Part shown: positions 45,001 through 47,021 of the stretch, in pieces
Layout of the letters: each line of letters starts with the position of its first letter
Position numbering within the stretch: position 1 is the first letter of the stretch
Sequence record: NC_009514.1
DNA: 47,021 nucleotides
Strand: one strand, 5' to 3'
Source of the DNA: Enterobacteria phage cdtI
Position numbers: made by a program

Positions 45001-47021
45001 TTTTATGGGATCCGGTTCCACAATAAAAGCAGCAATGGCGCTGGGGCGTCGGGCCTTAGGTGTTGAGCTTGAGTCAGAGCGGTTTAACCAGACAGTGAAA
45101 GAGATAAACGAGCTGGTGGGGAAATAATCTGGTGGCCACGTAGGTGGCCTTTTTATTTCCATTACACAGCACCCGCATCTGCGAGGTGGGGTTATGAAAT
45201 CCATGGATAAGTTAACAACGGGTGTCGCCTATGGCACCTCAGCAGGTAGTGCCGGGTACTGGTTTTTACAGTTGCTCGATAAAGTCACGCCCTCACAGTG
45301 GGCGGCAATAGGTGTGCTGGGTAGTCTGGTATTTGGCTTGCTGACGTATCTGACAAACCTTTATTTCAAGATTAAAGAAGATAAGCGTAAGGCTGCGAGA
45401 GGTGAATAATGTCGCCATCATTACGCAAGGCTGTTGCTGCTGCTATTGGTGGTGGGGCTGTTGCCATAGCGTCTGTGCTCATCACTGGTCCGAGTGGTGA
45501 CGATGGCCTGGAAGGTGTCAGCTACATACCATACAAAGATATCGTTGGCGTATGGACTGTATGTCACGGACACACCGGAAAAGACATCATGCTAGGTAAA
45601 ACGTATACCGAAGCAGAATGCAAAGCCCTCCTGAATAAAGACCTTGCCACGGTCGCCAGACAAATTAACCCGTACATCAAAGTCGATATACCGGAAACAA
45701 CGCGCGGCGCTCTTTACTCGTTCGTCTACAACGTGGGTGCTGGCAATTTCAGAACATCGACGCTTCTTCGCAAAATAAACCAGGGCGATATCAAAGGCGC
45801 ATGTGACCAGCTACGTCGCTGGACATACGCTGGCGGTAAGCAATGGAAAGGCCTGATGACTCGTCGTGAGATTGAGCGTGAAGTCTGTTTGTGGGGGCAA
45901 CAATGAGCAGAGTAACCGCGATTATCTCCGCTCTGGTTATCTGCATCATCGTCTGCCTGTCGTGGGCGGTCAATCATTACCGTGATAACGCCATCGCCTA
46001 CAAAGAACAGCGTGATAAAAAAGTCAGTGAGCTGAAGCAGGCGACCGCCACCATCGCTGACATGCAGCAGCGTCAGCGTGATGTTGCTGCGATCGATGCA
46101 AAATACACGAAGGAGTTAGCCGATGCGAAAACTGAAAATGAAACTCTGCGCGCTGATGTTGCCGCTGGTCGTAAGCGCCTGCGGGTCAATGCCAGTTGCT
46201 CCGCAGCCGTGCGTGAAGCCACCGGACCCACCAGCATGGATAATGCAACCAGCCCCCGACTGGCAGACACCGCTGAACGGGATTATTTCACCCTCAGAGA
46301 ACGGTTGATGACGATGCAGAAGCAACTGGAAGGGGCGCAGGAATATATCCGCACCCAGCGCATTAAGTAGCTGGAGAAAAAACACGAATCTGTGGTTTTT
46401 ACTGAGCGCGGTGTACACGGTGGAACATATGGCGGGAAGTTTGTTGCTTATGATTATGCAGCATGGCTAAACCCCGGATTTAAATATGCAGCCTATAAAG
46501 TCCTGGATGACTACTTCACCGGAGGACTTCAGCATCGCAACAGCTTAAGTGCGCAGCTCAATATGAAGTGTCATGAGTTTGATCAGAAAAAAGATATGGC
46601 GAGCTTCTGTGGACAAGGGCTGGCGGCATGGCGCTATACGAAGCCAGTGTTGGTCGCTGAGATTAACTCCCTGGCTAACCAGCTGCAGATAACGATCCCC
46701 GGGCTGTCCGGTATTTGCCGGTATGAAATTACCGGAAGGCGCGGTCGTTACTGAGTAAGAGCAGGCATTACAGCAGCCCTTCACTGAGGGGCTGCGATAA
46801 TGTGAGGAATAAAAAACCGGCAGGGGAAATCCATTGAAGATTTGCCGGTGGCAAAAGATGGCCATGCTTTTAACCTTAGTAGCAGAGCTACGGAGTTCAA
46901 CAACGACCGTCGCCGTTATCTTGCTGAAAGGCGTTTCAATGATTTTCATCAATTTATTCATCAGCAATGGTGATAATCACTCTCATTTTGGCGGGTCCTT
47001 CCGGTGGGGTGGCCTGCCACG

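What the first reader, a model, noticed from the sequence alone, without database searches (positions are those of the whole stretch)
46371..46754. KilA-N-like fragment after Rz near the right genome end
The ORF carries the KilA-N/APSES core (YAAWLNPGFKYAAY) but lacks the N-terminal strands and an ATG start, suggesting a truncated remnant or a gene using a non-canonical start in the cos-proximal region.
Basis: seen in the sequence. Interest (0 to 1): 0.2.

Follow-up and report, generated by a model that had tools for sequence, protein, structure and literature searches.

The report
Truncated KilA-N gene remnant after Rz
The ORF after the lysis genes is the leftover 3' two-thirds of a common lambdoid-phage accessory gene (HK620 hkbK family) whose first 51 codons were lost in one old recombination event; it is most likely a harmless dead remnant and is ordinary.

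Summary
Window 46371-46754 is an open frame that begins at the codon after the Rz stop. It has no in-frame ATG before 46563.

It is the 3' part of a KilA-N + ORF11CD3 gene of the HK620 hkbK family. DNA identity to intact genes is 91-98%, and protein identity to HK620 hkbK residues 52-165 is 97%. Intact genes encode 165-188 aa and pass both Pfam models. This copy keeps only the last third of KilA-N (below Pfam's cut-off) plus a complete ORF11CD3 domain.

The left breakpoint sits exactly on Rz's native TAG, with AG microhomology. The intergenic region, the ribosome-binding site and 51 codons are gone. The odd 13-aa C-terminal tail is not damage, because an intact 178-aa allele carries the same tail.

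The same junction occurs in phage phi458, 89 complete E. coli genomes and 38 IMG/VR contigs, so it arose once.

Polymorphism points to relaxed constraint. Intact alleles show 46 synonymous and 2 non-synonymous sites; truncated alleles show 5 and 8.

The ORF is already deposited as phage cdtI gp60, WP_000232224.1 and phrog_10441. Verdict: a gene remnant at a mosaic junction, probably non-functional. Low interest.

The parts
45903..46370 (+). Rz (i-spanin), intact, with its native TAG stop. It forms the left flank of the junction. Rz1 is embedded at 46123-46308.
   Evidence: ORF list. Annotated 'lysis protein' WP_000092262.1 in E. coli prophages. Phage phi467 has a 93%-identical Rz that ends with the same ...ATTAAGTAG.
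46368..46370 (+). Recombination junction. The Rz stop TAG aligns in frame with hkbK codon 51 (GAG). AG, or AGC, is shared microhomology.
   Evidence: Alignments A1 and A2. The same 30-nt junction is present in all 41 other truncated copies.
46371..46754 (+). 5'-truncated hkbK-family ORF. It is 127 codons from the junction, or 120 aa if read from GTG 46392. It is deposited as phage cdtI gp60.
46413..46520 (+). Residual C-terminal third of the KilA-N domain (Pfam profile positions 71-106 of 107).
   Evidence: Pfam gives 15.9 bits against a cut-off of 23.8. Intact alleles score 57-58 bits across profile positions 6-106.
46542..46700 (+). Complete ORF11CD3 domain (PF10549). In the model of an intact homologue it is a hairpin of two long helices.
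   Evidence: Pfam gives 51 bits against a cut-off of 25. The AlphaFold model of the intact 165-aa homologue P0007 has helices at residues 86-130 and 132-156.
46706..46754 (+). Alternative 3' end. There is a 1-nt difference (extra G at 46706) from the HK620 type, then divergence from 46712. This gives a 13-aa longer tail (…SGICRYEITGRRGRY). It is a natural allele, not a lesion.
   Evidence: The intact 178-aa gene in E. coli EFF60 (WP_248422991.1) has the identical tail and downstream DNA through cos.
46773..46849 (.). Two stable hairpins directly after the stop codon (46773-46794 and 46816-46849). On the minus strand the second is followed by a T-run (46808-46815). The block conserved in other prophages, 46808-47021, extends beyond this interval.
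   Evidence: RNA fold z-score of -3.7. Segment 46808-47021 recurs at 80-97% identity in more than 100 further E. coli genomes without the remnant.

Best explanation
This is a 5'-truncated remnant of a KilA-N + ORF11CD3 accessory gene of the HK620 hkbK family. That family normally sits between Rz and the packaging genes of lambdoid and P22-like phages.

Shown: one illegitimate recombination or deletion event, with 2-3 nt of microhomology, joined the last base of an intact lambda/DLP12-type lysis cassette (the Rz stop) to codon 51/52 of the gene. The event removed the intergenic region, the ribosome-binding site, the start codon and the N-terminal two-thirds of the DNA-binding KilA-N domain.

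Inferred: the junction survived because Rz on the left and the cos region on the right stayed intact and the accessory gene is dispensable. The leftover frame is carried passively at the 3' end of the late transcript. It is translated poorly or not at all. It has no function of its own and is drifting under relaxed selection.
For: 1. Homology and breakpoints. Window 46369-46711 is 91-98% identical to the interior and 3' part of intact genes, and the protein is 97% identical to hkbK residues 52-165. The breakpoint falls on the Rz TAG, and that TAG is Rz's native stop.

2. What was lost. The missing 51 residues contain 11 of the family's nearly invariant positions. In the model they form strands 2-6 and 9-13 and helices 21-28, 36-41 and 43-54. 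KilA-N falls below the Pfam cut-off in the remnant but passes in intact alleles.

3. Single origin. All 42 truncated copies share the same junction. All 45 other homologous loci have the hkbK 5' end directly upstream.

4. Relaxed constraint. Over the same 339 nt, intact alleles have 46 synonymous and 2 non-synonymous segregating sites, while truncated alleles have 5 and 8 (Fisher p = 1.6e-5). Within the same prophages, synonymous diversity per site equals that of S, R and Rz (odds ratio 1.08), but non-synonymous diversity is 4-fold higher (p = 0.008). There is a fixed N-to-K change at a conserved position. The window also carries a private E52G change at a conserved E/Q position. One copy has a frameshifted tail.

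5. No translation signals. The only GGAG lies 15 nt before GTG 46392, whereas the S, R and Rz Shine-Dalgarno-like sites lie only a few nt upstream of their starts.

6. No stand-alone relatives. A search of 1.84 billion representatives with the ORF11CD3 part alone found 13 hits, all long forms or fragments.
Against: - The frame is still open in all 42 copies. Only one has a frameshift, and that is in the tail.
- The ORF11CD3 domain is complete.
- The arrangement is common. It is in 89 of 5426 complete E. coli genomes, and the commonest protein variant is seen on 626 contigs.
- Six copies have gained an ATG immediately after the Rz stop.
- At less than 1% divergence, an open frame is also expected under neutrality.
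- The direct comparison of non-synonymous to synonymous counts against the neighbouring lysis genes is only a trend (p = 0.09).
- Expression was not measured.
Confidence: 0.82

Rival explanations
1. The remnant is a working mini-protein. It would be translated from GTG 46392, by re-initiation after the Rz stop, or from the ATG variant. The result would be a free ORF11CD3 helical hairpin that pairs with ORF11CD3-bearing regulators (KilA-N, Rha and Bro types) of the same or competing phages, for example as a dominant-negative.
For: - The ORF11CD3 domain is complete.
- The frame is open in all copies and the allele is widespread.
- Six copies carry C46371A, which puts an ATG directly after the Rz TAG.
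- The domain is modelled as a long helical hairpin, a shape often used for oligomerisation (that last point is inference).
- ORF11CD3 is a swappable module of the 'Bro network' (PMC10111431).
Against: - The ratio of non-synonymous to synonymous changes looks neutral, and four of the eight non-synonymous sites lie inside ORF11CD3: A77V, A96D, L101R and Q106R.
- There is no properly spaced Shine-Dalgarno sequence.
- No free-standing ORF11CD3 family was detected around this sequence.
- Other short forms (86-134 aa) look like independent truncations or contig-end fragments.
Confidence: 0.1
2. It is an intact member of a naturally short family that uses a GTG start.
For: PGAP and the phi458 authors annotate a 120-aa GTG ORF. 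PHROGs holds a 126-position family, phrog_10441, that matches it end to end.
Against: - That PHROG and the 120-aa cluster consist of this same recent truncated allele.
- All forms are more than 90% identical to 165-188-aa genes, whose 5' 151 nt are replaced here by Rz.
- Homology runs right up to the Rz stop, upstream of the GTG.
Confidence: 0.02
3. The stretch matters as nucleic acid rather than as protein, either as spacer or structure for late-transcript stability, or as part of the cos-proximal packaging signals.
For: It lies 270 nt from the right cohesive end. Stable hairpins follow the stop codon.
Against: - The conserved cos-proximal block begins only at about 46808 and occurs without the remnant in more than 100 prophages.
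- No Rfam family matches.
- Intact alleles vary freely at synonymous sites across the stretch.
Confidence: 0.04
4. Rz and the remnant are read as one protein by read-through of the in-frame TAG.
For: Rz and the remnant are in the same frame and are separated only by TAG.
Against: - A shared frame has a one-in-three chance of arising by accident.
- TAG is Rz's native stop in relatives that lack the remnant.
- The C-terminal end of Rz is understood to contact Rz1 (own knowledge of the spanin literature), so an added 127 aa would probably harm lysis.
- No read-through signal is evident.
Confidence: 0.01

Closest known systems
HK620 hkbK (NP_112071.1) and its homologues in Ss-VASD, Stx phages, ECP1 and Salmonella phages (KilA-N + ORF11CD3; phrog_129)
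   Same: Same gene lineage: 91-98% DNA identity and 97% protein identity over residues 52-165. Same position downstream of Rz and upstream of the packaging genes.
   Different: The window copy lacks codons 1-51, the ribosome-binding site and the upstream intergenic region with its terminator-like hairpin. It also carries the alternative 13-aa tail.
E. coli EFF60 prophage gene WP_248422991.1 (178 aa)
   Same: Identical 3' tail and identical downstream DNA through cos.
   Different: It is full length, with KilA-N at 57 bits. It sits behind a different lysis cassette and ahead of a different terminase.
Phage phi458 Orf23 (UYE91756.1), E. coli WP_000232224.1, phage cdtI gp60 (YP_001272573.1), phrog_10441
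   Same: The same truncated allele with the same junction. The window's exact 120-aa sequence is cdtI gp60, on a 47021-bp record.
   Different: The only difference is the window's private E52G substitution.
P1 KilA, BstA and other KilA-N proteins, including the window's own gene at 39844-40653
   Same: They share the C-terminal helix motif of KilA-N.
   Different: They are only distant paralogues (36% identity over 36 aa). The only PADLOC hit is a short local match to candidate family PDC-S22 that covers the KilA-N-derived residues 8-39. The remnant has no KilA-N fold left to work with.

Membership tests
KilA-N domain (PF04383) | A match to the whole domain at or above Pfam's gathering score (23.8 bits), including the N-terminal strands. 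| tested here: not met
   15.9 bits, covering profile positions 71-106 of 107 only. Intact alleles score 57-58 bits across positions 6-106.
ORF11CD3 domain (PF10549) | A full-length match above the gathering score (25 bits). | tested here: met
   51 bits, positions 1-54 of 54, E 1.7e-13.
hkbK lineage (KilA-N + ORF11CD3 gene downstream of Rz) | Orthology by high DNA identity and by position between Rz and the packaging genes. | tested here: met
   91-98% identity over 343 nt in 51 phage records, with the same position.
hkbK lineage (KilA-N + ORF11CD3 gene downstream of Rz) | A complete coding sequence with its own start and ribosome-binding site. | tested here: not met
   The first 151 nt are replaced by the end of Rz. 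There is no properly spaced Shine-Dalgarno sequence.
Pseudogene / gene remnant | Truncated relative to intact homologues, and derived rather than ancestral. | tested here: met
   One junction is shared by 42 copies, nested within a family of 165-188-aa genes.
Pseudogene / gene remnant | Relaxed purifying selection. | tested here: met
   5 synonymous and 8 non-synonymous sites against 46 and 2 in intact alleles (p = 1.6e-5). Non-synonymous diversity per site is 4 times that of the neighbouring lysis genes (p = 0.008). The direct ratio test against the lysis genes is only p = 0.09.
Pseudogene / gene remnant | No protein product. | not testable with these tools
   This needs proteomics or ribosome profiling of induced lysogens.
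Known anti-phage defence proteins (PADLOC, including the KilA-N protein BstA) | A significant match to a defence-system model over most of its length. | tested here: not met
   The only hit is a 32-residue local match to candidate family PDC-S22 (E 4e-4), covering the KilA-N-derived residues 8-39.

The most novel reading that the evidence does not exclude
The truncated ORF is translated at low level, from the GTG, by re-initiation after Rz, or from the ATG that six copies have acquired. Its free ORF11CD3 helical hairpin then binds ORF11CD3-bearing regulators of co-resident or superinfecting lambdoid phages. On this reading, a gene fragment has been recruited as a dominant-negative modulator.
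Probability: 0.05. Interest if true: 0.4.

Novelty: already known. Interest (0 to 1): 0.07.

Why it matters
It matters little on its own. It is a clean, datable example of how lambdoid phage mosaics form. One non-homologous join was kept because it fell exactly at a gene boundary on the essential side (the Rz stop) and in mid-gene on the dispensable side. The fragment was then carried into at least 89 sequenced E. coli genomes.

In practice the databases label it 'DNA-binding protein' or 'protein KilA', and that is misleading because the DNA-binding domain is gone. It would be better flagged as a truncated KilA-N/ORF11CD3 remnant.

Tried and rejected
It shares only 36% identity over 36 aa, so it is a distant paralogue and neither a source nor a duplicate.
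- **Search for an ancestor** with the window-type Rz 3' end followed by an intact hkbK. None was found among 45 full-length loci, which all carry other Rz 3' alleles. Deletion in situ therefore cannot be told apart from a join between two phages.
- **Rfam scan of 45100-47021** at E up to 1 found nothing.
- **PADLOC** gave no defence family, only a short hit over the KilA-N-derived residues.
- **Foldseek of the intact-homologue model against the PDB** gave nothing significant. The best hit was the Bqt4 N-terminal domain at E 0.68. By my recollection that domain is APSES-like, which would fit KilA-N, but the hit is not evidence.
- **Search of 1.84 billion representatives** with the ORF11CD3 part alone gave only 13 hits and no stand-alone family.
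- **Promoter scans upstream of intact alleles** found no plus-strand sigma-70 match, so I make no claim about whether the intact gene is an independently expressed moron.
- **Literature searches** for ORF11CD3 and for KilA-N in lambdoid phages found no functional study of this gene. They returned only its listing in the 'Bro network' (PMC10111431) and the unrelated KilA-N defence protein BstA (PMC8585504).
- **A first polymorphism count for Rz** used the wrong frame. It was discarded and redone.

Full report
**Setting**

The window is a complete lambdoid phage genome with cohesive ends. It starts with GGGCGGGAGCGT... and ends ...GGTGGCCTGCCACG, like lambda's two ends. Its right arm reads, in order:
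- DNA methylase, 44075-45127
- holin S, 45194-45409
- endolysin R, 45409-45906
- Rz, 45903-46370, with Rz1 embedded at 46123-46308
- the ORF in question, followed by about 270 nt to the end

The exact 120-aa product of 46392-46751 is deposited as 'hypothetical protein PcdtI_gp60' of Enterobacteria phage cdtI, on a 47021-bp record. The window is therefore that phage or an identical sequence.

**The observation**

The frame is open from 46371, the codon after the Rz TAG, to TGA at 46752-46754. The motif YAAWLNPGFKYAAY is at 46455-46496. The first in-frame ATG is at 46563, and the first usable start is GTG 46392.

Pfam sees two things. One is the tail of KilA-N: profile positions 71-106 of 107, 15.9 bits, below the 23.8-bit cut-off.

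**What it derives from**

Megablast against phage records shows that 46369-46711 is 91-98% identical to part of a longer gene in 51 phages, including HK620, Ss-VASD, several Stx phages, ECP1 and Salmonella phages. In HK620 that gene is hkbK, a 165-aa 'KilA-N domain-containing protein' that lies after Rz and before the terminase genes. In Ss-VASD it is annotated at 188 aa. The window product is 97% identical to hkbK residues 52-165.

Intact alleles pass both Pfam models, with KilA-N at 57-58 bits over profile positions 6-106. In a 20-sequence alignment the window sequence simply lacks the first 51 positions. Those positions hold 11 of the family's nearly invariant residues.

An AlphaFold model of an intact 165-aa homologue has mean pLDDT 82.5. 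It places strands 2-6 and 9-13 and helices 21-28, 36-41 and 43-54 in the missing part. What remains is one short strand, the helix that carries the quoted motif (residues 74-84), and a hairpin of two long helices (86-130 and 132-156) that corresponds to ORF11CD3. The KilA-N fold therefore cannot form in the remnant.

**Breakpoints**

On the left, the DNA alignments put the switch exactly at the Rz stop. The window reads ...ATTAAG-TAG-CTGGAGAAA, and hkbK reads ...TTAGCC-GAG-CTGGAGAAA, so TAG aligns in frame with hkbK codon 51. TAG is Rz's own stop: phage phi467 has a 93%-identical Rz that ends ...ATTAAGTAG followed by unrelated sequence. AG, or AGC when compared with phi467, is shared microhomology.

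The join removed about 340 nt of intergenic DNA as measured in HK620, including a terminator-like hairpin. It also removed the ribosome-binding site and 151 nt of coding sequence.

On the right, the window differs from the HK620 type by one extra G at 46706 and diverges from 46712, which gives a tail 13 aa longer. This is not damage. E. coli EFF60 carries an intact 178-aa gene (WP_248422991.1) with the identical tail and identical DNA through cos. Conversely, IMG/VR locus L046 has the truncated 5' end combined with the HK620-type 3' end and an hkbL-like gene. The two ends have therefore recombined independently.

**Distribution and origin**

The whole arrangement, from the 3' end of Rz through the remnant to cos, is found in:
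- phage phi458, at 99.6% identity, where it is annotated Orf23
- 89 of 5426 complete E. coli genomes, at more than 99% identity, annotated 'hypothetical protein' or 'DNA-binding protein', 120 aa
- 38 of 80 related IMG/VR loci

All 42 truncated copies, counting the window, share the same junction. All 45 other homologous loci have the hkbK 5' end directly upstream. This points to one event that then spread.

No sampled locus combines the window-type Rz 3' end with an intact hkbK. I therefore cannot say whether the event was a deletion in situ or a join between two phages.

PHROGs already holds this truncated form as phrog_10441, which it matches end to end at E 2.6e-76.

**Is it still under selection?**

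I counted segregating sites over the shared 339 nt.
- The 45 intact alleles show 46 synonymous and 2 non-synonymous sites.
- The 42 truncated alleles show 5 synonymous and 8 non-synonymous sites (Fisher p = 1.6e-5).

Young clades carry excess non-synonymous polymorphism in any case, so I used S, R and Rz from the same truncated-carrying loci as a control. They show 16 synonymous and 7 non-synonymous sites (one search used a wrong Rz frame and is discarded).
- The direct ratio test of remnant against lysis genes is only a trend (p = 0.09).
- Per site, synonymous diversity is the same (odds ratio 1.08, p = 0.79).
- Per site, non-synonymous diversity is 4-fold higher in the remnant (p = 0.008).

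Four of the eight non-synonymous changes fall inside ORF11CD3: A77V, A96D, L101R and Q106R. In addition, all truncated copies carry K where all intact hkbK-type alleles carry N (residue 4). The window alone has G52 where every other copy and nearly the whole family has E or Q. One copy, L079, has a frameshifted tail. Together this indicates relaxed constraint.

**Translation signals**

The only Shine-Dalgarno-like element before GTG 46392 is GGAG at 46373-46376, 15 nt upstream of the start. S, R and Rz have equally strong or stronger Shine-Dalgarno-like sites ending 3-4 nt before their starts in the same 9-mer scan, against 11 nt for GTG 46392.

Six copies have C46371A, which creates an ATG directly after the Rz TAG. 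This is the only hint of renewed translatability. It could equally be a neutral change.

**Other readings checked**

- No Rfam family matches 45100-47021.
- No defence-system model matches beyond a short hit over the KilA-N-derived residues.
- A search of 1.84 billion representatives with the ORF11CD3 part alone returned 13 proteins, all long forms or fragments. There is no evidence for a natural stand-alone family near this sequence.
- The other short proteins in the homology search (86-134 aa, more than 90% identical) look like independent truncations or contig-end fragments.
- Rz and the remnant share a frame and are separated only by TAG. Nothing suggests read-through, and a shared frame has a one-in-three chance of arising by accident.

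**Conclusion**

The ORF is a 5'-truncated remnant of an hkbK-family KilA-N/ORF11CD3 gene. It was created by one illegitimate join at the Rz stop codon. It was tolerated because the gene is dispensable, and it now drifts.

The kind of feature is textbook: a gene fragment at a mosaic boundary in a lambdoid phage, in the variable region between Rz and cos. The sequence itself is already in public databases, although it is often mislabelled 'DNA-binding protein' or 'protein KilA'.

Noticed in passing
window 41900-43600, minus strand: A low-GC island (32-38% against about 50%) holds a 313-aa DUF6731 protein (42501-43442) and a 147-aa hydrophobic ORF (42054-42497) with no Pfam or PADLOC match. It sits between the 125-aa ORF at 41653-42030 (not characterised here) and the methylase/lysis cassette, a typical position for a moron or defence candidate.
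   Followed up: partly
window 46773-46849 and 46808-47021: Two stable hairpins follow the remnant's stop codon (fold z-score -3.7). The second is followed by a T-run on the minus strand, so it looks like a leftward terminator. The block 46808-47021 recurs at 80-97% identity in more than 100 other E. coli prophages without the remnant, so it is probably the cos-proximal module.
   Followed up: partly
window 46842-46973, plus strand: A 43-aa ORF lies between the hairpins and the right cohesive end. It is annotated Orf24 in phi458. Its function is unknown and it may not be a gene.
   Followed up: no
L028-L032 and L040, position equivalent to window 46371: Six truncated copies carry C-to-A, which turns the first codon after the Rz TAG into ATG (TAGATG). 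This creates a potential coupled start for the remnant.
   Followed up: partly
L053 489-1149: The intact allele closest to the window's fragment (99.1% identity) has two small overlapping ORFs (118 and 109 aa) inserted between Rz and the hkbK-type gene. Their layout looks like a toxin-antitoxin pair, but I ran no family search on them. The insert shows how variable this slot is.
   Followed up: no
window 39844-40653 and 40655-41650: A second, intact KilA-N protein (269 aa, phrog_129 and phrog_8274) is followed by a DUF968/HNH-like protein. It is unrelated to the remnant apart from the KilA-N C-terminal motif.
   Followed up: partly
whole window: The exact remnant protein is deposited as gp60 of Enterobacteria phage cdtI on a 47021-bp record, so the window is that phage genome. 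That record did not appear among the hits in the phage collection searched.
   Followed up: partly
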